From NCBI RefSeq assembly GCF_009914755.1, contig NC_060947.1: DNA of 64,000 nucleotides; one strand, 5' to 3'. This stretch comes from the human T2T-CHM13v2.0 reference genome, Homo sapiens. The translations under genes and the position numbers were made by a program. Positions 47,452-64,000 of the stretch are shown in pieces (position 1 is the stretch's first letter; the number at the start of each line of letters is the position of its first letter). The notes beneath the pieces were generated by a model, which ran no database searches, was not told the origin of the DNA, and saw only the letters and a program-made list of their open reading frames with translations.

Positions 47452-47575
47452 CTGGAAGAGGTGGGGCTGGACTCTGTCGCCATCACCCTCGACTCGCACA
47501 TGGGGTTATCTGCGTCCAAGGCTGCCCTCGGGGCGACCACCGATGAGCCCATGGAGCCTGAGCCGAAACTGGCTG
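47452..47575 (+). pseudogene. PICALM-like exon 1 (5' boundary uncertain): LEEVGLDSVAITLDSHMGLSASKAALGATTDEPMEPEPKLA
   Basis: Aligns with CALM [36 protein letters not shown]. Ends in a phase-1 donor G|GTGAGT at 47576, in a GC/CpG-enriched patch. Confidence 0.7.
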
Positions 47576-49523: not shown

Positions 49524-49666
49524 ATCTAATACAGTACATCAGTGAAACTAACATAAGCGTTGAACATCTGGCTAATGTTCTTTCTGAAAAAACTAGGAGC
49601 AGTAGCTGGGTGGTGGTGTTCAAAGCCCTGGTTACTGTACATCACCTCATGGTGCACGGAAATGAG
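49524..49666 (+). pseudogene. PICALM-like exon 2 (143 nt): DLIQYISETNISVEHLANVLSEKTRSSSWVVVFKALVTVHHLMVHGNE
   Basis: tttAG|AT acceptor, GAG|GTGAGC donor; contains the ANTH signature SSWVVVFK.L.T.HHLMV.GNE. Confidence 0.95.
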
Positions 49667-50139
49667 GTGAGCGTAAGCATGCAATTGCAAAATGTTCTTG
49701 GTTTGTCAAGGGCTTACTACCTTTTACTTTAATTAGTGGCAAGTGAGAGAAGTGAATAGCAGTATGTATTTAAAATATTTTTATCTGTTTTTATTAATGA
49801 ATATATCTTTGTGATCAGTATTCTTTGAGGTGTATCATTTTAGTCACTGATGAAATAGCCACTGGATAACAATGTCCATAATAGAGTGGATATTTCTGTC
49901 AATTCTTTAGAGGATTTAGACCCCAAAAAGCCCCTTAGAAATGTGTTACCTCATACTTGCTTTACTTTGACAGGAGAGACTACACCTAAGCATATTACCT
50001 CATCACCTACCCATCTCTCTATATTTTACAGAACAACTGGAATGCTCCATAACATTAAATTACTTATTATTTTCTACTTTAAATTCACAGGCATTTTCCC
50101 TCAGTAAGTTTTGTATTAAAAAATCAGGGTTTAGAAATT

Positions 50140-51330
50140 GACTGGATTTTGAAACTCATTATAAAGCAACAGTAATTACACAGCAGAGTACTGGTAAAAA
50201 ATAGAACATATATATAAATGGAACACAATAGAGAGCTTGGTTATAGAACTACACTTATATGGGAACTTGGTGGCACTAAAAAATGTGGGGAAAAGCATGG
50301 GGGAAGGAATTTAAAATAAAGCCTATTGGCACAAGCAGCATCCCTATGGAAAAAATGAGAATGAGATGCTTATGTTACCCCATATACAAAAATAAATTCC
50401 ACATGGATGAAATATCTAAATTCAAAAAATAGATAAAATTGAAGAAAATGTAGGAGAATATGCTTATGACATTTGGGTAGGGAAGGCGCCATAGTTAAAA
50501 GAAGATATTTGCAACATATATACTATAGACTAAAGGTTAATATTCAGAATACATAATTAGTAAGAAAAAGGCACTACAATAGACTAATGAGCAAAAGAAA
50601 TGAACAGAGGGTTTATAGAAAAGGAAAACAGAATGTCTAATAATCATCTGAGAACATGCTCATATTAGCAAAAATTAAAATTTCTGACAGTATGAATAGT
50701 TGGGAGGACATTGAGGTAATGGGAATTCACATACTCTGTGGATACATGTAGCTGCTGCAGTTTATCACTGTGGAGCGGAGAACATTGAGACACATTTAGA
50801 AAGTTGAAAATGCCCATCCCAGTGACTCAGCAAATCCACTTCTCACATCATGTTTATAATAATGAAAAACTAGAAATCACCTAAATTTCCATCACTAGAG
50901 AACAGATAAAATTTAGTGTAGTTATACAATAAAATGCTGTATTACATTAAATGAGATTGTATACCAGTAAGGCTAGACCTCAAAAACAATGCTAATAGAA
51001 GAAGCAAATTGTAGAATGACACTTAGAGTGCAAAACTACTTACGTAAAAAATTTAAAATACACACAGTACTTGTCCATGGAACAAATACATGTGAAACTA
51101 TGAGGAAAATAGATTATAAAGATAATGCATTAAAATTATGATACCAGTTACTTCTAGGTAGAAGCAGGAAATGGATCTCAGGGATGGGGCTTTATCCGTA
51201 ATCATTTATTTTCTCTTATTTTAATAATAGACTTGAAGCAGATATGTCAGAAAGTTAGCAGTTATCATTTCTAGGTAGTGGGGTCCACAGATGTATCATA
51301 TTATTATTTGTATACTTCCGTAACTTAAAA
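50140..51330 (+). mobile_element. Very old L1ME fragments in pseudogene intron 2
   Basis: Degenerate L1 ORF2 3' motifs (catatacaaaaataaattcc, atatttgcaacatata). Confidence 0.6.
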
Positions 51331-51634
51331 TTACTCAAAATCAAGAGTGGGGCATGGCTAAATAGAAAGTCTTAGAGGGAAACAGTGTGTATTCACATGA
51401 GCTTTAATGTTTAACTCCTTGTTTATTTGGGGGGTATATAAATAGAGGAGAGTTGGCAGCTGCAAATCTTTATGTTGGCCAGCACAGGATGTGATTGTGC
51501 GCAACTTAATCAATGTTCCTGAAATAGATACAAGGTGAACGATAGAATTAAGTATACATTCATAATGACAATCATTAAGGAACTTTTTGTGTGTACAGAA
51601 ACTAATTTTAGAATTTGGCACATTTGTTTGACAG

Positions 51635-51710
51635 CGTTTCATTAAACATGTTTCATGTCAGAGCTCTTTGTTCACTTTACACAATTTCCTGGATAAAAGT
51701 GTCATAGAAG
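51635..51710 (+). pseudogene. PICALM-like exon 3 (76 nt): RFIKHVSCQSSLFTLHNFLDKSVIE(G)
   Basis: tgacAG|CGT acceptor, AAG|GTAAGA donor; compare CALM RFIQYLASRNTLFNLSNFLDKSGLQG. Confidence 0.92.
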
Positions 51711-52694
51711 GTAAGATGATTCTTTGATGGAAATATTTCCATATGCCAAAGAGGGAAAAGTTCTGAAAATTGTGCCTAGTTAAAAAAGTGTCTAAATTAT
51801 GAAGGCTGCGATGTGCTATACATTTTAAGAATGTAAATAATCCCCAAATTCATTGATACAACGTATATTTGGAGCTTACTAAGAATAACAGAATATGCCA
51901 TATGCTAGAGACAGAAAAGTTAATGAGACCTACAGGTCTTTGCTCAGTGAAGCCTTGTCCAGCCTACCAAAAATTGCAGCACCTTTACACCAGTTCTCTG
52001 CCTGGGTTTATTCTTTCCCCTTCTCCCTGACTGTCTCTGTGTTCCTTTTTTTTTTTTTTTTTTTAACATAATTGTCTGTCATTTCCCATTGAAATGTAAG
52101 CCCTATGAGGGCAGGAATATTTGTCTGTTTTTTTCACTGCTGAACTTCCAGCACTTAATACATCGCCTGGCTTATAGTAGGCACTCAGTGATTGTTTAAT
52201 GAATGAATAAATTGAAGGGGAATCAGCATACATTTGGAGGTCGAGTAGAGAGTAGTTGAGTTTGTACCATGGCCTTTCTTCTCCTTTTTCTCTATGAAGT
52301 AGGCTGCAGGTCATTTGCTGAGTGGAGGGAGAGGGGAGGAGGGATGGTGGCAGTGGGATGACGAGAGTAAGGAAAATGCTAACAATTTATAATAGTTTCT
52401 GTGAAAATGTCGAAGGAGCTGATACAGTTCAATTATTTCATCTGTTCAGGAATGTCACCATCAATATCCCATTAAGGGATGATATCAAAGCTCTAAGGAA
52501 ATAAAAATTAATCTTTAACAGAAAGCTGGAAGAATGTTGGAGTAGGTGATTAATAAAGGCCATTCTAGCTTTTGTGCTTCAAAGATATTGTTGAAGTATA
52601 CAGGTGAATGTGGAATAAGTCTTTGCATTTATTGACATATTGTAAAAAGCTACTGTTGGTTGAATTGGAAATAATCGAAATATCTCATTTTTAG

Positions 52695-52796
52695 GCTATA
52701 CTATGTCAACTTCATCAGACGATACAGCAAGTACTTGAATGAAAAGTCACTCGCATATAGAATGATCTCATCTGACATCACAAAAACCAAGAGAGG
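52695..52796 (+). pseudogene. PICALM-like exon 4 (102 nt, 1-nt deletion near 52710): YTMS[T/fs]FIRRYSKYLNEKSLAYRMISSDITKTKR(G)
   Basis: ttttAG|GC acceptor, GG|GTCAGT donor; compare CALM [34 protein letters not shown]. The uncorrected frame stops at TGA 52736-52738. Confidence 0.92.
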
Positions 52797-52955
52797 GTCA
52801 GTAAATATCATTAGTTTGTAAGCAAGAAGTACTGAAGCTTACATGTGGCCTGCTTTGTAGTTTGTCAAAAACAGCCCTATTTCAAGATGCTGATGTCACA
52901 GAGCTTCTCAAACTCTTAATTATTGAGGTTCATGAATTTCTTTTATCTTTTATAG

Positions 52956-53035
52956 GACAGATTGTGTGATAAGAAACTATGAATACTGAAGAGCTGCTAA
53001 ACACACTTCCAGTTATTCAAACCCAGTTTAATGCA
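52956..53035 (+). pseudogene. PICALM-like exon 5 (1-nt insertion near 52975; 3' end and donor missing): TDCVIR[fs]TMNTEELLNTLPVIQTQFNA
   Basis: tatAG|G acceptor; compare CALM [31 protein letters not shown]. Similarity stops after GCA at 53035 and there is no GT at the expected position. Confidence 0.88.
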
Positions 53036-53154
53036 ACATAAGAGCTTTATAAATTTTGTTAAAAAATATAGTAAATAGCATCCTGTAACTATAGGTAGGA
53101 GAAATAATTTTCTAACTGTGGTGTTAATTGGTTACGTTTTTATTTAATTTTCAG

Positions 53155-53266
53155 GCAAATCCTGATGAACTAACTAATGGTATAATACATGCTGCTTTTA
53201 TGCTCCTCTTTAAAGATTCTCTTTGTCTCTTTGCAGCTTATAATGAAGGGATCCTTAATCTGCTAG
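53155..53266 (+). pseudogene. PICALM-like exon 6 (112 nt): ANPDELTNGIIHAAFMLLFKDSLCLFAAYNEGILNLL
   Basis: ttttcAG|GCA acceptor, TAG|GTAGGA donor; 28/37 identical to the CALM exon-6 peptide as I recall it. Confidence 0.95.
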
Positions 53267-54184
53267 GTAGGATAAAGAATAAGCTTTTTAAATGATTACT
53301 TTTTAAAGCATAAAATGGTAAAATAATTTATTTGTAAAAATCCCTTGTCTCTACATTTAGACTCACATTTGTTTTAGATACAAAATAGAAAATCTTTGCA
53401 GGGTCATGTATACTTTTCAATACAAATATTATATTGCTTCATTGGTTAAACATTATTTGGCTAATTAGCTACAAAACTTTTCCACTTTTATGTAAGTGCT
53501 AACTGATATTTCTGGGAAATTTGTCAGGGAATCAACCTAGGTTGCCATGTTTATTCATTATATGGTAATAAGGCCCATTTCCACCAAGTTCAAATAACAC
53601 AGTTTTGACTTTCCTAAGAAGGTAAAGCCTATAACATAAGTAATTGTTATTGATGATATACAAGCATATATTTTTAGACTTTTCAGGAAATTACTGTCAT
53701 CATTTAGCCCTAATGAATGATTCATTTAGCTGCAATTATTCTATAAACTTTATTGACGGGAATTTGATAGCTTTCCTTATACTGAAGAAATACGTAGTAT
53801 TATACATTTGTAGGGTTATAAGAGAGTAGGAAACACAGCTCTTTCCCTCAAAGGGTTGCAGAGCTTTGTATTAATCAAAAAGACTATAGACTAGAAGTCG
53901 TTGAAATTAAAATCTAAACTATCTGTGCATGCTATTAAATTCCATATACCCAGCACCGGTATTTGGTATACAGTAGTTACTCCATAAAAAATAGTTGATT
54001 ATGGGGATAGAGCAGTGCTATTTCTTGTTATTAAAACAGAAAATAACTTGATTAAAATTATAATTGTTTTGAACAGGTTAAATTCATATCCAGAATTAGC
54101 TTAAAATAGAATAATCAGAATGGAGTAAAACTTGAAAATTGCTAAGATATTGGCTCCTTTATGGTAATTTTTTTCTATTTTTAG

Positions 54185-54291
54185 ACAAATATTTTGACAT
54201 GAGGAAGAACCAATGCAGGGAAAGTTTGGATATTTACATCAGGTTCCTTAGAGGAACAACCAAATTGACACAGTTTCTGAAAGTTGCAGAG
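54185..54291 (+). pseudogene. PICALM-like exon 7 (107 nt): DKYFDMRKNQCRESLDIYIRFLRGTTKLTQFLKVAE
   Basis: ttttAG|AC acceptor, GAG|GTACAG donor; compare CALM [36 protein letters not shown]. Confidence 0.95.
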
Positions 54292-54896
54292 GTACAGAAA
54301 TCCATTTCTACTTAAGGTGTTTCTTTTTTTGCAATAATTTAGTATCACTTGAAACTATACCTCTTTCCTCCACCACCATAACCACACAAACGCACAGAAA
54401 TTGGTAGTTGTTTTAACTACTTTGTAAACAGTAAAACTAAAACTAAAACTAAAGTTAGGTACTTCAAATGTACTATCCAATGCACTTGCACTCAAAAGCA
54501 ATCTTACAAGGACTTCTGTTTGCAGCCATAAAGATAACCAGTATGAAGCTTACCCTCCCACCAGAAACAACTCTAAAAGTAGACCAAAATATATATGACA
54601 TAAGTCTTTTTAGGTAGTGAACAATAGGTAGGTTTGTGGTCAGTGACAGAAACACTTGAGGTGAGCCCCATGTTCTCCCTGACACTCAGAGAACCCAAGC
54701 AGGATAAATACAAAGAGAACCACACGGAGGCGAGTGATAGTCAAGCTTCTGAAAACCAAAGAGAACAAAGACATATTACCCATGGGAGAATGACAATACG
54801 AATAATCGCTGACTTCTGACTACTTGAAAAATTAGAACACGTTTGTATGATATCCAAAATGCAGCTTAGCTCTTCTTAAATCAGCAAAGACTCAAT

Positions 54897-55205
54897 AAGC
54901 TGGAAACCATCATTCTCAGCAAACTAACACAAGAAGAGAAAACCAAACACCGCATGTTCTCGCTCATAAATGGGAGTTGAACAATGAGAACACGTGGACA
55001 CACGGAGGGGAACATCACACACCGGGGCCTGTCAAGGTGTGAGGGGTTACAGGAGGGACAGCATTAGGAGAAATAACTAATGTAGATGATGGGGGTTGAT
55101 GGATGCAGCAAACCACCATGGCACGTGTACACCTATGTAACAAACCTGCATGTTCTGCACATGTACCCCAGAACTTAAAGTATAATGAAAAAAATAAAAA
55201 TAATT
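54897..55205 (+). mobile_element. 5'-truncated L1PA 3' end in pseudogene intron 7
   Basis: gctggaaaccatcattctcagcaaactaacac...acttaaagtataat followed by an A-tail. Confidence 0.92.
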
Positions 55206-55405: not shown

Positions 55406-55450
55406 CAAGTTGGAACTGACCAGAGCAACAACATTCCATATATTACTCAG
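55406..55450 (+). pseudogene. PICALM-like exon 8 (45 nt): QVGTDQSNNIPYITQ
   Basis: tgtttcAG|CAA acceptor, CAG|GTCAGT donor; compare CALM QVGIDRGDIPDLSQ, with one extra AAC codon. Confidence 0.9.
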
Positions 55451-55859
55451 GTCAGTGTATCTCTCCTATGTATTTAAGTGACGTTTTTGTCTTTGTTTAT
55501 GTGTGTTTATTATATTAATCATCATCTGAGACTCTCCATCCTTTGCTATATACTTATGTGTGTGCGTTTTCATTTCTCCATAAGTAACATATATATGTGT
55601 GCTTATTATGTGTGTGTGTGTATGTGTATAACAACTAGACCATGCTTTCAATATTATCAGTAGAAACAGCAGGGTATTTGGAATAAAGAACTTAGATTTG
55701 AGGACTGCCCTGTCCACCTTTCAGGTATATGGTCTCAAGCAACTCATTTCCATTCTCTGTTCCTTATTTCTGCAACTGCAAAATGGGTATGATGCACCAC
55801 CTGGCTCATAGTAGTGTTGTAAGAATCAAAGGAGCTCAGGCTTTTTTTCTTCCTCAGCA

Positions 55860-57120
55860 ACTAGTTCTCAGGGATCCCCTCATGGGCATAGGTGTGATCT
55901 GGGGTAGAGGTGGCAGTGCTGGAGGTGTGGACAAGATGGGCCTCAGGCAACCTGCTTGTGGATCCTACTTAGCCCTCTGGACCTGCCTGTGCTCCAACCC
56001 AGATATATCATGGGGCCTGAGCAGCACGGCTTCTGGTCCAGCCTGTACCTACTACAGAGCCCTTTCCTACTCTGGGCCCCCAAATTTAGGTGGCAGGCCT
56101 AAATTTTAGGCCACCTGGGATATGGATGAGAGCAGTTTTCCCTCATGTGGGAATATGCTGTCTCCAGAGCCCAAAGAAGCCTACCAGGTATCATGTATCC
56201 TTTTTTGTTGTGGGAGGTACAAGATGCAATACTTTATCTTTTATTTTGGATGTGATGTCCTGGTATGCCTCTGACCACTGGAACCCCCCAAATTTTATCA
56301 GTGTGAAAAGAAGGTAGACTGCATGTATCTTTCACTATACTGCCCACTGCCTGCTCATCTGATCCTATGAGCATGACATCATGGATACAGTGGATCAATT
56401 TCATGCTCTGAGGAGTGACCAGATGTTCTAGACTTCTAACTTTATTATGACAGAAGATAAGAGAGTTAACACAGCCATGGGTATAAAACTGAAAATGTAA
56501 AGTGTTGTTCATTCCATGTGCCTGTGAACTCTTTCCGAGTCACACTTCTGATGGTGATAGAAAGCAACACAGTCACCAAACCAGCAGCCACATACTATGT
56601 ACCTAAAGCTGCATTAACTCCACCTCTACCAAAGAAGCTATCATGGCTGGCATAGTGGCTACAATTGGGGTACTACTTGATTGATTTTGCTGTAGTTGTT
56701 AATCTCCAGAACCCAACTGGTTTTGATGGGGAATGGGGACTATCACCACTAATATAATCCTTTCTGCTATTTAGATTTGTGCTAATTTCTGCCATCCTCT
56801 TGGGAGGTAGTCCTGTTTTTGTTTTTGTTTTCGTTTTTGTTTTGTTTTGTTTTAATCTACTGTTTTGCTTGGAGGGTGATTGGGGGCTATATCAGAGGCA
56901 CGCCCCTAGATGAGTTTTGCTGTGGCTTAACTATAGTTATAGGCCTAGAGGACAGGAATGGAGGTGGGAGCAGATCCTGATGGGGCATGTAACTTGTGGA
57001 GTAGAGGCCTCTGTATCATCTCCAACAAAGGAGGCTCAGAGGTTTCTGGAAAATCTGGAGACTCAAGACTTTCAAAGCCATTCCCCAGCTGTCCTCATCC
57101 TACATATCAGCGACTGGTGT
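55860..57120 (-). mobile_element. ERVL-class internal (pol) remnant
   Basis: ORF 56234..56512 (-) GCVNSLIFCHN..KLIHCIHDVMLIG resembles ERVL RT (QGYINSPALCHN..LVHYIDDIMLIG). An RAQAGPEG-like motif lies near 55975. Confidence 0.78.
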
Positions 57121-60100
57121 GGCAGACCTGCCTTGGTTGGGACTAGAAGAATGAAGGATTATCTGAGATAACACATGTGGAATGCTCAGACAGTGCCTGG
57201 TTCATGTGGCAGTCATGTGTATGTGAAGAAGCCTGTGAAGAGAGAGAAAATGAAGATGTAGGGGAGAGAGGATGGTTGCAGATGCAAATAAAATGTTAGG
57301 TTTAGTGGCAGAGAAGGAGGGATTTTTTGGCTGATGGCTTATAAATCTTTGAAGGAAAGGAATGTTCTCTCAAGTATACACAGCACAAATGTTCCTTCAT
57401 GTGCAGACAAGTACAAAGGCAGCTTGCACGTAGCCCTGAAATCCCACAAAGTGGTCCACAATGGGAACCACTGTTGGGTGAAATAATGCATGGCTTCCTG
57501 AATGAGAACTCAGATGACCAGTGGTGGGAAGAGAGAGAGACAATGAGAATGTCTGGGTTAGTAGGGGAAAAGACAGAGTTTCATTGCCTCATGGCGACAT
57601 AACCAGTTGATTTCAATCAACATTCATTCGTAAACATGCTTGACTCCTTTTCAGTTATAATGAATGAGACACAATCCCGGCCCCTGAGTTCCCGAAAAAG
57701 ACTGAACAAAAATTACACATGAAGAATCACTAGGTATCCATCACAATGTAGTCCTCTGACTTTTTTCTACATTGACCTTTCTTCCCTAAGGGAGGTGGTG
57801 GGGGCAGCAAGGGGACCTTTGCTAGGAACCACAGTCTCAGCCATTGTCAGGATGCCGATGAGCATTAACTGACCAGCACCTGTGCTTAGAGTTCTAAGGG
57901 ACATTTGCCAGGAGGAGTACCTGAATGGAGAGCCACATTTCCCACCAGTCCACCCTCCTCCTTACCTCAGCTCTGGTCTTCCTGAGATCAAAAATGAAGT
58001 AGATGGTTGCAGGAGAGCCTGCAAAAGGCAGGCAGGGATCTTGTTGGTAAACTTTCATGCAGATTCATTCCTCTGTAAATCAACCCTTTTTCTGGAAGAG
58101 CTTCCTTATCAGTACGCTGGGCCCTGGCCCTCAGCCAGTACAGAAAGTCATTTGTCAAGGCCTTCAGTTGGCAGACGTGCTCCCTGGACTACGTGCTTTC
58201 TCGGGTGTCCCAGAAACCCTGGAATGGAGTGAAATGCAGGGCTACGTGGGAGAGCAGGGAGGCAAGAATTAAGTCGGCCCCACCTTTGCCCAACTCAGTG
58301 GGTCTCCTTGAGAGAGGTCTGCAGTTTCAAGGAGACTTTTCAGCCAATCTGCTGCGAGATCCTGTGAAGGGGTGTGAAGGTCTTCCTCTGTGACTATAGA
58401 TTGGCCAGTCTCTCCTTGTGTGTCCAACAGTTTTCATTATACTTTATGTGAATTAATGCAAAACTGCTAGGTTTAAACTGCTCACCATTTTAGGGATCCC
58501 TTCTGGATTTTACCTTCCTTAAGGGGAAATTTTCCTCCTTTCCTCAGTTCATCCTTTCTGCCTTGGCTTTGACGTGGTCTGGAGGCCACAGAGCCTCCTC
58601 CTGAGAACCTCTCTCTGGTGTGTCTGTTTGTGTCCGTCCCTCTCCTTTCGATCATTCCCTGTGGTTCCTGTTGGGCGCGGCTCCCATAAACGCACAGAGC
58701 AGGGTCTGCTTTGTCTGCAACCTGATGCATTGTTATTTCTCACCAAAACTTGCAGTCCAAACATCACATTTCCGGGCCACACTCTTTGTCAGAGCTCCAG
58801 GGGCACAACCCCGGGGACCTGCTGGAAGGTGCCACCGTGACGTGTGCCTAGATGCGTTTTCCCTCAGTTACCACAGCGTTCCTCTGGTTCTGGTGGCTGG
58901 AGGGTGACCGCGTGCTTCATGAAGGGGGTCCTTACTGCTTCGCATCCACCCTTTTCACGGAAAGCACTTTGTCACATGTTTTCAGTGTTTCTAAGCGATT
59001 TTCTGCCAATCTTGTGTGCTAAGATTGTGTGGCAGCGTTTCCACAGATTTATAGCTGGCAATGAATTCTCCCAAAGGAAATCAGACAAAATAACATGTTT
59101 CCAACATTGTTCACATACTGACAACTTTTGTTATTCATTCTCTCAGAATTGTTCCTTAGCTGTGTCCGCACCTCTGTAAGTAGTACATTAAACCTGCTAG
59201 CTCAGCAGCTTATATCACCCATCTTCCGCCCAGATCTGCTTCTCTTTCTGTGTACCCTTCTCATCCTTGATACTCTCTCCTTCCACTCGCCTTTACAATC
59301 CAACACTGAATCCTAACGACTTTGTCTGCAATGCCTCCTCTTTTCTGCATTTTAGCTTCAACTTCCATCCTCTCTCACCTTCCAACCAGTCTGTCTCCAG
59401 ATACTCTGCCCCCTGCTGTTTGTTTTACACAGTGCATCCAGAATGCAGATCTGATAACATCCAAAATAGAGATCTGATCATTTCACCTCTCACTCAAAAG
59501 CCCTCGAAGGTCTCCCAGGATTCTTAGGACAAAGTGCAAGCTCCTCAACATTGCTTTTAATTTAAGGTCCTGCATTGTTGAACCCTTTCCTACTCTCCAG
59601 CTTCATCTCCCTTATGCTCCCCTCTGCTGTTTCTGCTCTAGCAACAGGGTTCATCTGTGCCATATGCCTTCCCCAGGGCCTTTGCACATGTTATTCCTCT
59701 GTCTACAGTGCTCTTTCTTCCCGAACTGACCTACTACTTATTCCTCAGCTATCCTTCATAAGGATAAGTATACACAGCACAAACTATTACTTTCTTCAGG
59801 AGGGCTTGCTTCCCTGACTTCCCTGACTTGGTTAGATTCCCCTGCTTCAACAGTGAGTATTGTGTACCTCTCTTTCATGCTACTGTTTACAACTTAAAAT
59901 GACTTTACATTTATTTGTGTGATTGTTTGATATATCTTCTCCTTATCTGTAGACTGTAATCTTATGAAGCTTGGGATCAAGTTGTTTGTGCTTATGGTTA
60001 TATCCCCATTTCTTATTGGTAAATTATCATAAATATTTCTTGAACAAAGAATCAGTGAATGGTTCAGGGGAGTTGGTGGAATATAGAATCCTGGTGAGGA

Positions 60101-60134
60101 ATTGGCCTTATATAAGAGGGAGTCTATTGTTTCT

Positions 60135-63100
60135 AGTTTTTTTTAATTTTTTTCCCATAGGTTTCTGGGGAAGAGTTGGCATTTGGTGACATGAGTAAGT
60201 TCTTTAGTGGTGATTTCTGAGATTTTGGTGCACCCATCACCCGAGCAGTGTACACTGAACCCAATTTGTAGTCTTTTATCCCTCACCTCCTTCCCACCCT
60301 TTCTCTCAAGTCCCCAAAGTCCATTGTATCATTCTGATGCCTTTGCATCCTCGTAGCTTAGCTCCCACTTGTGAGTGAGAACATACGATGTTTGGTTTTC
60401 CATTCCTGAGTTGCTTCACTTAGAATAATAGTCTCCAATCCCATCCAGGTCACTGCAAATGCTGTTAATTCATTCCTTTTTATGGCTGAATAGTATTCCA
60501 TCGTATATCTATACCACAGTTTCTTTATCCACTCGTTGATTAATGGGCATTTGGGTTGGATCCACATTTTTTCAGTTGCAAATTGTGCTGCTATAAACAT
60601 GTATGAGCAAGTATCTTTTTCGTATAATGACTTCTTTTCCTCTGGGTAGATGCCCAGTAGTGGGATTGCTGGATCAGATGGCAGTTCTACTTTTAGTTCA
60701 TTAAGGAATCTCCACACTGTTTTCCATAGTGGTTGTACTAGTTTACATTCCTACCAGCAGTGTAGAAGTGTTCCGTTTTCACCGCATCCATGCCAACATC
60801 TATTATTTTTTTATTATGGCCATTCTTGCAGGAGTAAGGTGGTATTGCATTATGGTTTTGATGGACATTTCCCTGATAATTAGTGATGTTGAGCATTTTT
60901 CCATATGTTTGTTGTCCATTTGTATATCTTCTTTTGAGAATTGTCTATTCATGTCCCTAGACCACTTTTTGATGGGATTTTTTTTCTTGATAATTCGTTT
61001 GAGTTCATTGTAGATTCTGGATGTTAGTCCTTTGTCAGATGTATAGATTGTGAAGATTTTCTCCCACTCTGTGGGTTGTCTGTTTACTCTACTGACTGTT
61101 CCTTTTGCCGTTGGAAAGATCTTTCATTTGATTAAGTCCCAGCTATTTATCTTTGTTTTTATTGCATTTGCTTTTGGGCTCTTGGTCATGAAATCCTTCC
61201 TTAAGCTGAGGTCTAGAAGGGTTTTTCTGACATTATCTTCTAGAGGTTTTATAGACTCAGGTCCTAGGTGTAAGTCTTTGATCCATCTTGCGTTGATTTT
61301 TATATAAGATGAGAGAGGAGGATCCAGTTTCATTCTCCTACATGTGGCTAGCCAGTTATCCCAGCACCATTTGTTGAAAAGGTTGTCCTTTCCCCACTTG
61401 ATGTTTTTATTTGCTTTGTCAAAGATCAGTTGGCTGTAAGCATTTGGCTTTATTTCTGGGTTCTCTATTCTGTTCCATTGGTCTATGCATGTATTTTTAT
61501 ACCAGTACCATGCTGTTTTGGTGACTATGGCCTTATAGTATAGTTTGAAGTCAGGTAATGTGATGCTTCCAGATTTGTTCTTTTTGCTTGGTCTTGTTTT
61601 GGGTATGCAGGCTCTTTTTTTGGTTCCATATGAATTTTTGGATTTTTTTTCTGGTTCTGTGAAGAATGATGGTAGCATTTTGATGGGAATTGCATTGAAC
61701 TTGCAGATTGCTTTTGGCAGTATGGTCATTTTCACAACATTGATTCTACCCATCCATAAGCATGGGATGTGTTTCCATTTGTTTGTGTCATCTATGATTT
61801 ATTTCAGGAGTGTTTTGTAGTTTTCCTTGTAGAGGTCTTTCACCTGCTTGGTTAGGTATATTCCTAAGTATTTTATATTTTTGCAGCTATTGTAAAAGGA
61901 GTTGAGTTCTTGATTTGATTCTCAGCTTGGTCACTGTTGGTGTATAGGAGAGCTACTGATTTGCATACATTAATTTTGTATTCTGAAATTTGCTGAATTC
62001 TTTTATCAGTTCTAGGAGTTTTTGGAGGGATCTTTAGGGTTTTCTAGGTATACAATCATGTCATCAGCAGATAGCAACAGTTCGACTTCCTCTTTACCAA
62101 TTTGGATGCTGTTTATTTTTTTCTCTTGTCTGATTGCTCTGGCTAGGACTTCCAGTACTATGTTGAATAGAAGTGGTGAGAGTGGGCATCTTTGTCTCAT
62201 TCTGGTTCTCAGAGGGAGTGCTTTCAACTTTTCCCCATTCAGTACTATGTTGGCTGTGGGTTTGTCATAGATGGCTTTTATTACATTGAGGTATGTCCCT
62301 TGTTTGCTGATTTTTGCTGAGGGTTTTTATCATAAAGTGATGCTGGATTTTGTCAAATGCGTTTTCTGCATCTATTGAGATGATCATGTGATTTTTGTTT
62401 TTAATTCTGTTTATGTGGTGTATCACATTTATTGACTTGTGTATGTTAAACCATCCCTGCATCTCTGGTATGAAACCCACTTGATCATGGTAGATTATCT
62501 TTTTGATATCTTGTTGGATTCAGTTGGCTAGTATTTTGCTAATGATTTTTGCATCTATGTTCATCAGTGATATTGGTCTGTAGTTTTCTTTTTTGGTTAT
62601 GTCCTTTCCTGGTTTTGGTATTAAGGTGATACTGGCTTCATAGAATGATTTAGGGAGGATTCCCTCTTTCTCTATCTTGTGGAATAGTGTCAATAGGATT
62701 GGTACCAATTCTTCTTTGAATGTCTGGTAGAATTCAGCTGTGAATTCATCTGGTCCTGGACTTTTTTTGTTGGTAATTTTTTAAAATTACCATTTCAATC
62801 TTGTTGCTTGTTATAGGTCTGTTCAGGGTGTCTAATTCTTCCTGATTTAAGCAAGGAGGGTTGTATCTTTCCAGGAATTTATCCATCTTCTCTATGTTTT
62901 CTAGTTTATATGTGTAAAGGTGTTCATAGTAGGCTTGAATTATCTTTTGTATTGCTGTGGTGTCAGTTGAATATCTCCCATTTTGTTTCTAACTGAGCTT
63001 ACTTGGATTTTCTCTCTTGTTTTCTTGGTTAATCTTGCCAATGGTCTATCAATTTTATTTATCTTTTCCAAGAACCAGCTTTTTGTTTCATTTATCTTTT

Positions 63101-64000
63101 GCATTTTTTTTGGTTTCAATTTAATTTAGTTCTGCTCTGATCTTGGTTATTTCCTTTCTTCTGCTGGGTTTGGGTTTGGATTGTTCTTGTTTCTCTAGTT
63201 CCTTGAGGTGTGACCTTAGAATGTCTATTTGTGCTCTTTTGGGCTTTTTGATGCAGACATTTATGGCTATGAACTTTCCTCTTAGCACTGCATTTGCTGT
63301 ATCTCAGAGGTTTTGATAGGTTGTGTCACTGTTGCCTTTCAGGTCAAAGAATTTTTTAAATTTCAATCTTGATTTCATTGTTGACTCAATGATCATTCAG
63401 GAGCAGGTTATTTAATTTTCATATATTTGCTTGATTTTGAAGGTTCATTTTGGAGTTGATTTCCAGCTTTATTCCACTGTGGCCTGAGAGAGTACTTGAT
63501 CTAATTTCAATTTTCTTAAACTTATTGAGACTTGTTTTGTGGCCTATCATATGGTCTATCTTGGAGAAGTTTCCATGAGCTGATGAATAGAATGTATATT
63601 CTGCAGTTGTTGGGTAGAATGTTCTGTAAATACCTGTTAAGTCCATTTGTTCCAGGGTATAGTTTAAATCCCTTGTTTCTTTGTTGACTTTCTGTCTTGA
63701 TGACCTGTCTAGTGCTGTTAGTGGAATATTGAAGTCCCCCACTATTATTGTGTTGCTACCTATCTCATTTCTTAGGTTTAGTGGTAATTGTTTTATAAAT
63801 TTGGGAGCTCCAGTGTTAGGTGCGTATATATTTAGGATTGTGATATTTTCCTGTTGGACTAGTCCTTTTATCATTATATAATGTCCCTCTTTGTCTTTTT
63901 TAACTGCTCTTGCTTTAAAGTTTGTTTTGTCTTTTATAAGAATAGCTACTCCTGCTTGCTTTTGGTGTCCATTTGCATGGAATGTCTTTTTCCACCCCTT
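60135..64000 (-). mobile_element. L1PB-type LINE-1 (broken ORF2 EN/RT/C-terminus and 3'UTR), running off the window end
   Basis: ORFs 63419..63874 (IYAPNTGAP, VGDFN, IDH), 62520..62708, 62265..62480, 62012..62227 (ADD), 61124..61753 and 60358..60717; L1PB-like 3'UTR. Confidence 0.93.

What the first reader, a model, noticed from the sequence alone, without database searches (positions are those of the whole stretch)
49524..54291. Mosaic similarity suggests an ancient ohnologue, i.e. a unitary gene loss
Seen, compared with recalled sequences: exon 2 carries SNAP91-type residues (ETN, FKALVT, VHGNE). Exons 6-7 carry PICALM-type residues (LFAAYNEGI, KYFDM.KNQC.E). A recent copy of either gene would resemble only one. 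Known: PICALM is on 11q14, SNAP91 on 6q14, and Xq28 shares paralogue pairs with 11q (GAB3/GAB2, RAB39B/RAB39A). Inference: this is a whole-genome-duplication-age family member with intact orthologues beside BRCC3/VBP1 in other vertebrates.
Basis: partly seen in the sequence, partly recalled or inferred. Interest (0 to 1): 0.78.

Follow-up and report, generated by a model that had tools for sequence, protein, structure and literature searches.

The report
Dead third CALM/AP180 gene on Xq28
Between BRCC3 and VBP1 the human X chromosome carries the broken remains of a third, ancient relative of the endocytosis genes PICALM and SNAP91, a gene still intact in most other mammals, birds, reptiles and fish.

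Summary
Window 49524-54291 contains exons 2-7 of an intron-bearing ANTH-domain gene. The whole gene runs from an intact ATG at 47500 to about 120250, 56 kb past the window, and its last three exons sit inside VBP1 intron 1. Exon sizes match PICALM and SNAP91. Seven of the eight in-window exons keep AG/GT borders. The frame is broken by a 1-bp deletion in exon 4, and by a 1-bp insertion, stops and a lost donor in exon 5.

About 95 eutherian species have predicted proteins of 300-485 aa from the same place, and several gene models are fused to VBP1. Monotremes, birds, reptiles and a caecilian have a slowly evolving 600-660 aa relative. A duck model of it is fused to VBP1 at the same junction.

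In an ML tree, the eutherian X-linked, tetrapod VBP1-adjacent and teleost proteins form one clade (100/98). This clade is sister to PICALM and apart from SNAP91. A duplication confined to tetrapods is rejected (p-AU 7e-11).

So this is a human unitary pseudogene of a third family member that predates the fish-tetrapod split. Whether whole-genome duplication produced it was not tested directly. I found no paper describing it.

The parts
47500..47575 (+). Exon 1. The ATG is kept, the peptide is MGLSASKAALGATTDEPMEPEPK-LA, and the donor is GTGAGT. It is one codon shorter than the macaque model.
   Evidence: tblastn with lemur, horse and macaque orthologues; sequence and frames; splice sites. It aligns to residues 18-43 of PICALM-type exon 1.
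49524..49666 (+). Exon 2, 143 nt, open, with AG/GT borders.
   Evidence: Pfam ANTH 3.7e-8; PDB CALM and LAP about 3e-13; 94% identical to horse and macaque orthologues; same length as PICALM and SNAP91 exon 2.
51635..51710 (+). Exon 3, 76 nt, open, with AG/GT borders.
   Evidence: tblastn 70-96% to orthologues; splice sites; same length as in PICALM and SNAP91.
52695..52796 (+). Exon 4, 102 nt where the paralogues have 103. A T is missing from the T run at 52711/52712, and the shifted frame reaches TGA at 52736-52738.
   Evidence: Three-frame reading: GYTMST lies in one frame and (F)IRRYSKYLNEK... in the next. Orthologues read straight through. The bonobo models read through here.
52956..53049 (+). 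Exon 5, broken three ways: an extra A in the A run 52974-52976 (giving TGA at 52987-52989 in the restored frame), a TAA at 53039-53041, and no GT donor at the expected end.
   Evidence: Three-frame reading; splice table; macaque, marmoset and lemur proteins are continuous here; one bonobo model skips this exon.
53155..53266 (+). Exon 6, 112 nt, open, with AG/GT borders.
   Evidence: Pfam ANTH 7.3e-7; tblastn 86% to orthologues; same length as in PICALM and SNAP91.
54185..54291 (+). Exon 7, 107 nt, open, with AG/GT borders; it ends the ANTH core (..FLKVAE).
   Evidence: Pfam ANTH 20.7 bits; tblastn; joined in-frame translation with exon 6.
55406..55450 (+). Exon 8, 45 nt, open, with AG/GT borders; it is one codon longer than in the orthologues.
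   Evidence: tblastn; translation QVGTDQSNNIPYITQ with AG and GT flanks.
55451..64000 (+). First 8.5 kb of intron 8. The next exon lies at 66753, outside the window. The intron contains the 1041-bp F8 intron-1 homologous repeat at 58087-59127.
   Evidence: Exon 9 mapped at 66753-66830 in locus L009; repeat copy found in F8.

Best explanation
This is a unitary pseudogene: the in-place remains of a third vertebrate member of the CALM/AP180 (PICALM/SNAP91) ANTH-domain clathrin-adaptor family. The gene lies between BRCC3 and VBP1, and its 3' exons are nested in VBP1 intron 1.

Shown: the human copy keeps its start codon, its exon sizes and most splice sites. It cannot make an ANTH domain, because a 1-bp deletion in exon 4 stops translation after about 112 residues, and exon 5 is also broken.

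Shown: intact orthologues exist in most eutherians. A slowly evolving form exists in monotremes, sauropsids and a caecilian at the same VBP1-nested position, and teleosts have members of the same clade.

Inferred: the paralogue arose with PICALM from one ancestor before bony fishes and tetrapods split, most likely in the second vertebrate genome duplication. It was remodelled on the eutherian stem. There it lost the first 17 residues and the lysine cluster of the lipid-binding site, gained an MGxxxSK start that looks like a myristoylation signal, and lost the C-terminal NPF and about 150 residues. It then came under relaxed constraint in anthropoid primates and died in the ape lineage.
For: Anatomy. 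There are 15 exons from 47500 to about 120250. Exon lengths 143/76/102/~94/112/107 compare with 143/76/103/94/112/107 in SNAP91 and PICALM. 7 of 8 in-window exons have AG/GT borders.

No other copy. The genome-wide ANTH search found only chr7 and chr12 loci, which by position I take to be HIP1 and HIP1R (recalled), plus chr11, chr6 and this locus. The search with the chicken protein found only chr11, chr6 and chrX.

Orthologues. 110 of 116 candidates hit. 94 of the 95 named hits are eutherian 'PICALM-like' proteins and 1 is a skate AP180.

Synteny. Lemur P0072 and deer P0087 continue in frame into residues 92-95% identical to human VBP1 exons 2-6. Duck P0151 does the same at the same junction, and goose and swan models of the same protein are named as prefoldin subunit 3 (=VBP1) isoforms.

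Conservation. The non-eutherian forms are 96-98% identical to chicken LOC772071 in the ANTH domain and 89-90% to human PICALM.

Tree (46 rows, 308 columns, LG+C20). SNAP91 is supported at 99/97, PICALM at 98/92, the third clade at 100/98, and PICALM plus third at 100/95. The human pseudogene is sister to macaque (100/100).

AU tests. With PICALM p = 0.029; with SNAP91 p = 0.0045; tetrapod-only duplication p = 7e-11.

Introns do not align to PICALM or SNAP91.

Remodelling. An MG...(S/A/C/T)K(A/T)A motif opens 70 stored eutherian proteins and lies internally in 8 more. The site that reads KKKH in PICALM reads EPKH. NPF is present in 4 of 4 non-eutherian tails and 0 of 8 eutherian tails.
Against: The sequence signal tying the eutherian gene to the third clade is thin. 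Of 12 columns that separate third from PICALM, the eutherian majority has the third state in 4, the PICALM state in 1 and neither in 7. The AU test against PICALM gives only p = 0.029. The eutherian stem is very long (0.78 changes per site), so long-branch effects are possible; the case rests heavily on VBP1 synteny.

The 12 outgroup rows, the two non-human PICALM-type rows and the SNAP91-type representatives are unnamed proteins whose taxa I could not establish.

No marsupial, Mus or Rattus protein appeared in the lists, so the history within mammals has gaps.

Teleost chromosomal context was not seen, and the sources name the teleost proteins plain 'PICALM'.

Other primates were seen only as predicted proteins, which annotation pipelines may have patched.

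Nothing was tested about transcription of the human locus, and the myristoylation reading rests on a recalled consensus.
Confidence: 0.88

Rival explanations
1. The eutherian X-linked gene is a DNA-level duplicate of PICALM, or of the VBP1-adjacent gene's neighbour, made on the mammalian stem. It evolved fast and is pulled to the third clade by chance. Under this reading the human relic is a dead young duplicate, not an old family member.
For: Overall it resembles PICALM more than SNAP91: 20 versus 7 exclusive matches. The eutherian stem is long at 0.78. The AU test against a PICALM grouping is only p = 0.029. Only 4 of 12 diagnostic columns show the third state.
Against: The gene occupies the same slot as the bird gene, with terminal exons upstream of VBP1 exon 2 and the same read-through junction. 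No second VBP1-adjacent ANTH gene appears in eutherians, and no eutherian carries the slow form among the 120 best hits. Introns show no similarity to PICALM. The tree gives 100/98 for the third clade.
Confidence: 0.04
2. The paralogue is old but did not come from whole-genome duplication. Instead a single-gene or segmental duplication of the PICALM ancestor occurred in an early vertebrate or early bony fish.
For: My data date the split only as older than the teleost-tetrapod divergence. No shark or lamprey member of the third clade was identified, and the paralogy of Xq28 with 11q14 was not tested here.
Against: The topology (SNAP91, (PICALM, third)) with similar depths is what two rounds of duplication with one loss would give. 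By recall, not by test, several Xq28/11q gene pairs are listed as ohnologues (GAB3/GAB2, RAB39B/RAB39A, MTM1/MTMR2).
Confidence: 0.15
3. The human locus is not dead. It still yields a product: a short N-terminal peptide of about 112 residues, an exon-skipped protein or a regulatory RNA.
For: The ATG, 7 of 8 in-window splice-site pairs and every tblastn-matched stretch of exons 6-15 are still open. The exon 1 region keeps 56-60% G+C. Pipelines still predict proteins from the bonobo locus.
Against: Reading from the ATG stops at 52736-52738, inside helix-forming ANTH sequence. Skipping exon 5 (94 nt), or exons 4 and 5 together (196 nt), does not restore the frame. CpG observed/expected at exon 1 is 0.41-0.47, below the usual island level. 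The catarrhine stem is 0.24 changes per site, against 0.05-0.17 for other eutherian tips, which points to relaxed constraint before the lesions. RefSeq annotates nothing here (hub table).
Confidence: 0.05

Closest known systems
PICALM (CALM), human chr11
   Same: Same ANTH fold family, and the same exon sizes and intron phases for exons 2-7. It is the sister clade in the tree (100/95). C-terminal blocks are alignable.
   Different: ANTH identity of the human relic is 61%. Introns are unrelated. It lies on a different chromosome. The eutherian form lacks the first 17 residues, the KKKH lysine cluster and the NPF. The human copy is broken.
SNAP91 (AP180), human chr6
   Same: Same family and exon structure. 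It shares a few exon 2 residues: ETN, FKALV and VHGNE.
   Different: Identity is 56%. It is a separate clade (99/97), and a grouping with the X-linked gene is rejected at p-AU 0.0045.
Predicted 'PICALM-like' genes beside VBP1 in non-eutherian tetrapods (chicken LOC772071 P0157, platypus P0121, alligator P0140, caecilian P0134)
   Same: Same clade (100/98). The position is the same, with read-through into VBP1 exon 2. They share A183, K246 and L247 and the ANP motif.
   Different: These proteins are 600-660 aa with a full PICALM-type N-terminus, KKKH and NPF. They are 96-98% conserved among themselves. The human relic is 63% identical to the chicken protein.
Eutherian X-linked 'PICALM-like' predicted proteins (mouse lemur P0070, horse P0009, seal P0042, armadillo P0060, cow P0078)
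   Same: They are direct orthologues: 85% (lemur) to 94% (macaque) identical over the ANTH region, with the same 15 exons mapped onto the human locus.
   Different: Their reading frames are open over 440-485 aa. The human copy has the exon 4 and exon 5 lesions.

Membership tests
ANTH-domain CALM/AP180 family (Pfam PF07651) | Significant match to the ANTH profile | tested here: met
   Exon 2 scores 33.2 bits and exon 6 28.9 bits against a cut-off of 21.5. Exon 7 scores 20.7 and exon 4 12.5; exon 3 has no hit. A genome-wide scan with PF07651 also flags both exons.
ANTH-domain CALM/AP180 family (Pfam PF07651) | Exon-intron structure shared with PICALM and SNAP91 | tested here: met
   Exons 2-7 measure 143/76/102/~94/112/107 nt, against 143/76/103/94/112/107, with the same phases.
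ANTH-domain CALM/AP180 family (Pfam PF07651) | Lysine-rich PtdIns(4,5)P2 site near the N-terminus (consensus recalled from the literature; it reads KKKH in PICALM, SNAP91 and the third clade) | tested here: not met
   Human reads EPK-L and other eutherians mostly EPKH. The non-eutherian third-clade proteins keep KKKH. This argues for a changed mode of action in eutherians, not against descent from the family.
Unitary pseudogene | Introns retained, so it is not a processed copy | tested here: met
   There are 15 exons spread over about 73 kb, with AG/GT borders at 7 of 8 in-window exons.
Unitary pseudogene | Frame-breaking lesions | tested here: met
   Exon 4 has a 1-bp deletion followed by TGA. 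Exon 5 has a 1-bp insertion, TGA, TAA and no donor.
Unitary pseudogene | Intact orthologue at the same place in other species | tested here: met
   Lemur, deer and horse models run into or are named with VBP1, and Peromyscus models are named with BRCC36, which is BRCC3. Positions in those genomes were not inspected directly.
Unitary pseudogene | No intact copy of the same gene elsewhere in the genome | tested here: met
   Searches of the whole assembly found only chr11, chr6, chr7, chr12 and this locus. Both protein searches used a stricter first look and may miss weak matches.
Ohnologue from the vertebrate genome duplications | The gene-tree split is older than the bony-fish/tetrapod divergence | tested here: met
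   Named teleosts fall in the third clade. A tetrapod-only duplication is rejected (dlnL 51.8, p-AU 7e-11).
Ohnologue from the vertebrate genome duplications | The paralogues lie in large paralogous chromosome blocks | not tested
   Only recalled gene pairs are available (GAB3/GAB2, RAB39B/RAB39A, MTM1/MTMR2). No neighbour analysis was run.
Ohnologue from the vertebrate genome duplications | Members in cartilaginous fishes or a split dated to the vertebrate stem | not testable with these tools
The only named cartilaginous-fish protein seen is a skate SNAP91 (P0109).

The most novel reading that the evidence does not exclude
Vertebrates began with three CALM/AP180 adaptors, not two. The third stayed almost unchanged for more than 350 million years in fishes, amphibians, sauropsids and monotremes. 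On the eutherian stem it was rebuilt into a different kind of protein. The new form is shorter and probably anchored by N-myristoylation instead of the PtdIns(4,5)P2 site and membrane-inserting first helix, and it lacks the NPF endocytic motif. That rebuilt gene was then lost in apes and possibly in murid rodents. This would explain why it has escaped study in the two best-studied mammals, while PICALM work in chicken, frog or fish has an unrecognised paralogue in the background.
Probability: 0.4. Interest if true: 0.72.

Novelty: new member of a known kind. Interest (0 to 1): 0.6.

Why it matters
PICALM is a major Alzheimer-risk and leukaemia-fusion gene, and SNAP91 is the synaptic vesicle adaptor. 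The family is treated as having two members in vertebrates.

A third member changes how knock-outs and orthology tables in chicken, frog, fish, cow, pig or dog should be read. It is conserved at 96-98% across non-eutherian tetrapods, nested in VBP1, rebuilt in eutherians and dead in humans.

It also adds a clean case of human gene loss, and it offers a natural experiment on what an ANTH domain does without its lipid-binding lysines.

The locus is medically mapped ground. Its intron 8 holds the repeat that mediates the F8 intron-1 inversion of severe haemophilia A.

Tried and rejected
- Six literature searches found no description of this gene or pseudogene: PICALM/SNAP91/ohnolog/pseudogene; PICALML, PICALM-like, 'clathrin assembly protein-like' and CALM-like (where PICALML meant the long PICALM isoform and the fish hits concern salmon and eel paralogues); picalma/picalmb; 'unitary pseudogene' with 'clathrin assembly'; PICALM with SNAP91, paralog and whole genome duplication; LOC772071, PICALMP and 'PICALM pseudogene'. 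I saw only search listings and abstract starts. About 1.7 million PMC articles and most subscription journals are outside that search, and I could not consult GENCODE pseudogene tables.
- The ESM Atlas look-up of unnamed representative P0162 returned only 'Chordata, AP180 family' and gave no taxon.
- Representative P0228 joined the eutherian clade as two long branches meeting (flagged). Its best matches are teleost proteins at 46-59%, so I dropped it from the careful tree.
- Rows dropped before trees: Tamandua P0028, unnamed P0153 and Aix P0139, all partial. The careful tree used the human read-through plus 8 of about 95 eutherian proteins, 8 of 39 non-eutherian tetrapod rows, 4 of 120 teleost rows and 22 of 150 representatives, along with human PICALM, human SNAP91 and the skate protein.
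- Rescue of the frame by the -1 and +1 changes cancelling out was considered and rejected, because a TGA lies between them.
- No structure prediction or complex job was run, because the fold is not in doubt.


Full report
OBSERVATION. Window 49524-54291 (+) holds six exon-like blocks whose translations match the ANTH domain. Pfam PF07651 scores 33.2 bits on exon 2 and 28.9 bits on exon 6, against a cut-off of 21.5. The best solved-structure matches are CALM/PICALM ANTH chains and Drosophila LAP, at about 3e-13.

ANATOMY. I mapped the locus with intact orthologues by tblastn and read the borders directly.

Exons inside the window:
- exon 1: 47500-47575
- exon 2: 49524-49666
- exon 3: 51635-51710
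- exon 4: 52695-52796
- exon 5: 52956 to about 53049
- exon 6: 53155-53266
- exon 7: 54185-54291
- exon 8: 55406-55450

Exons beyond the window, in the same numbering (loci L009-L013, L030):
- exon 9: 66753-66830
- exon 10: 73906-74022
- exon 11: 78461-78586
- exon 12: 82885-83013
- exon 13: 107827-107868
- exon 14: 119174-119290
- exon 15: about 120196-120249

VBP1 starts at 107306 (hub table), and its second coding exon matches at 130479. The last three exons therefore lie inside VBP1 intron 1 on the same strand.

Exons 2-7 measure 143, 76, 102, about 94, 112 and 107 nt. The values rebuilt from this genome are 143, 76, 103, 94, 112 and 107 for SNAP91, with the same borders in PICALM. Seven of the eight in-window exons have AG and GT borders; exon 5 has no donor.

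The lesions are as follows:
- One T is missing from the run at 52711/52712 in exon 4. Reading from the ATG then reaches TGA at 52736-52738 after about 112 residues.
- There is an extra A in the run 52974-52976 in exon 5, which gives TGA at 52987-52989 in the restored frame.
- There is a TAA at 53039-53041, and the 3' end of exon 5 is unrecognisable.
- Exon 1 is one codon shorter and exon 8 one codon longer than in the orthologues, both in frame.
- In exons 6-15 every stretch that tblastn matched is free of stops.

The exon 1 region has 56-60% G+C and CpG observed/expected of 0.41-0.47.

NOT A COPY OF A LIVING HUMAN GENE. A whole-assembly scan with PF07651 found only this locus and loci on chr7, chr12, chr11 and chr6. 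By position I take the chr7 and chr12 loci to be HIP1 and HIP1R (recalled); chr11 is PICALM and chr6 is SNAP91. Searches with a chicken protein and an unnamed fish-type protein hit only chr11, chr6 and chrX; both ran with a stricter first look.

Nucleotide similarity to the PICALM and SNAP91 exon loci is 68-83%. It ends at or within 13 nt of the exon borders in the +-150 nt of intron compared, and exon 1 gave no match at all.

ORTHOLOGUES IN EUTHERIANS. The exon 2 peptide retrieved 110 proteins from 116 candidates. 15 are unnamed, 94 are eutherian 'PICALM-like' predictions of up to 595 aa, and 1 is a skate AP180. The eutherians span xenarthrans, afrotherians, bats, carnivores, ungulates, whales, pangolins, rabbit, many non-murid rodents, tree shrew, colugo, mouse lemur, marmoset, macaque and bonobo. 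No human, Mus, Rattus, marsupial or monotreme protein is in that list.

Full-length forms are 440-485 aa.

Several models carry the neighbours' names. Horse, mouse lemur and deer models are named 'prefoldin subunit 3' (that is, VBP1), and Peromyscus models are named 'BRCC36' (that is, BRCC3). I checked that lemur P0072 and deer P0087 run in frame from the last PICALM-like exon into residues 92-95% identical to human VBP1 exons 2-6.

THE SLOW FORM IN OTHER VERTEBRATES. A search with the lemur ANTH domain listed the best 120 of 8000 scored candidates. 81 were eutherian, at 74-100% identity. 39 rows followed, all at 72-74% identity. Of these, 36 are named: platypus, echidna, squamates, tuatara, alligator, birds and a caecilian.

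These proteins are 500-770 aa. Their ANTH domains are 96-98% identical to chicken LOC772071 and only 89-90% to human PICALM, so they are not PICALM itself.

Duck P0151 carries a prefoldin domain. Its residues 601-767 are 74-93% identical to human VBP1 exons, and they join at the same point as in lemur and deer. Goose and swan models of the same protein are named as prefoldin subunit 3 isoforms.

The chicken gene sits on a 90.9-Mb chromosome. That size fits chromosome 4, the counterpart of the human X long arm, but this is recalled and not tested.

PHYLOGENY. A full scan of 1.84 billion representatives with the chicken protein gave 2893 hits, of which I saw the best 150.

One of them, P0161, is 91% identical to the chicken protein and 86% to human PICALM. 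It proved to be from Oryzias latipes, and 119 further rows, nearly all named teleosts, lie around it.

Another, P0162, is 96% identical to human PICALM in the ANTH domain. Its C-terminal exons are only about 60% identical to human PICALM, so it is a PICALM-type protein from a non-tetrapod that I could not name.

The careful ML tree had 46 rows and 308 columns, used LG+C20+F+G4 and was rooted on 12 unnamed distant representatives. Its main groupings are:
- SNAP91: 99/97
- PICALM: 98/92
- PICALM plus the third clade: 100/95
- third clade: 100/98, made of teleosts (100/97), the VBP1-adjacent tetrapod genes, and the eutherian X-linked genes (100/100, stem 0.78 changes per site)

The human read-through is sister to macaque (100/100).

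AU tests of the alternatives gave:
- eutherian gene held with PICALM: 8.6 lnL worse, p 0.029
- eutherian gene held with SNAP91: 18.0 lnL worse, p 0.0045
- duplication confined to tetrapods: 51.8 lnL worse, p 7e-11

A plainer count is sobering. Of 12 columns that separate the third clade from PICALM, the eutherian majority shows the third state in 4 (A78, A183, K246, L247), the PICALM state in 1 and neither in 7. The tree agrees with the synteny, but synteny carries much of the weight.

THE MOSAIC. Over 231 comparable positions the human relic matches both paralogues at 121, PICALM only at 20, SNAP91 only at 7 and neither at 83. In exon 2 the exclusive matches are 4 to SNAP91 and 2 to PICALM.

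Of those four SNAP91-only matches, only the A of FKAL is also the third-clade and outgroup state, which makes the S in PICALM the derived state. ETN, LV and VH are not shared with the slow third-clade proteins, and lemur and cow read VY.

So the pattern is real, but it is made of one retained ancestral residue plus chance matches on a long branch. It pointed to the right answer for a partly wrong reason.

WHAT THE GENE WAS. This part is inferred. The slow form has the full PICALM-type N-terminus, the KKKH site and a C-terminal NPF, so it presumably works as a CALM-like clathrin adaptor.

The eutherian form changed in several ways:
- It starts at the position of residue 18, so the first helix is gone.
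- It reads EPKH where the others read KKKH.
- It opens with MG...(S/A/C/T)K(A/T)A in 70 stored proteins, and the motif lies internally in 8 more. This fits the recalled N-myristoylation consensus.
- It has no NPF in 0 of 8 tails, against 4 of 4 in the slow form.
- It is about 150 residues shorter.

That points to a membrane protein with a different anchoring mode. None of this was tested.

DECAY IN PRIMATES. This part rests on predicted proteins only.
- Mouse lemur has a full 485-aa protein.
- Marmoset lacks exon 1 in its model and wanders after exon 9.
- Macaque and snub-nosed monkey models end in an exon matching window 58078-58269, and the macaque ANTH domain is continuous.
- The bonobo models read through exon 4. 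One skips exon 5 alone and the other skips exons 5-7 and reads exon 8 out of frame.
- The catarrhine stem is 0.24 changes per site, against 0.05-0.17 for other eutherian tips.

The simplest reading is that constraint relaxed in anthropoids, exon 5 broke before the human-Pan split, and the exon 4 deletion arose on the human side. Genomic alignments are needed to confirm this.

WHAT IS NOT SHOWN. The following were not established:
- that genome duplication made the paralogue
- the chromosomal context in fishes, marsupials and murids
- the taxa of the unnamed representatives
- any transcript or function

LITERATURE. Six searches found nothing on this gene or pseudogene. I saw search listings only, and the limits are given under Tried and rejected.

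IN PASSING. The RefSeq recombination element at 58087-59127 has a 100% identical inverted copy at C23:153242509-153243549, inside F8. This is the int1h-2/int1h-1 pair that mediates the F8 intron-1 inversion (passages of PMC7507428). It lies in intron 8 of the pseudogene.

Noticed in passing
window 58087-59127 (+); second copy at G000:C23:153242509-153243549 (-): A 1041-bp repeat has a 100% identical inverted copy about 140 kb away inside F8. It fits the int1h-2/int1h-1 pair that causes the F8 intron-1 inversion in severe haemophilia A (passages of PMC7507428). It lies in intron 8 of the PICALM-like pseudogene.
   Followed up: partly
window 58078-58269 (+): Macaque (P0002) and snub-nosed monkey (P0013) gene models end in an exon 87.5% identical to this stretch (measured for P0002), which overlaps the int1h-2 repeat. 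This is either a catarrhine-specific terminal exon or a prediction artefact.
   Followed up: no
beyond the window: 107827-107868, 119174-119290 and about 120196-120249 in window numbering (loci L013, L030): The last three exons of the PICALM-like gene are nested in VBP1 intron 1 on the same strand. Read-through models splice into VBP1 exon 2 at the same junction in lemur, deer and duck. The overlap is therefore conserved between birds and mammals.
   Followed up: partly
proteins P0173, P0174, P0177 (unnamed representatives): These three form a well-supported sister group to all SNAP91 rows (98-99 support). They are 77-81% identical to human SNAP91 in the ANTH domain. They may be a fourth family member in some vertebrates; their taxa are unknown.
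   Followed up: no
proteins P0161 and P0301-P0419 (teleosts): Teleost proteins that their sources name plain 'PICALM' group with the VBP1-adjacent third clade rather than with human PICALM. Orthology naming in fishes may need review.
   Followed up: partly
hit lists: No Mus, Rattus or marsupial protein appears among the 110 and 120 listed relatives, although many other rodents do. This may reflect further independent losses, or it may be an effect of the list limits.
   Followed up: no
window 54690-55100: Just downstream of exon 7 the sequence looks like a fragment of an interspersed repeat, judged by eye. It was not analysed.
   Followed up: no
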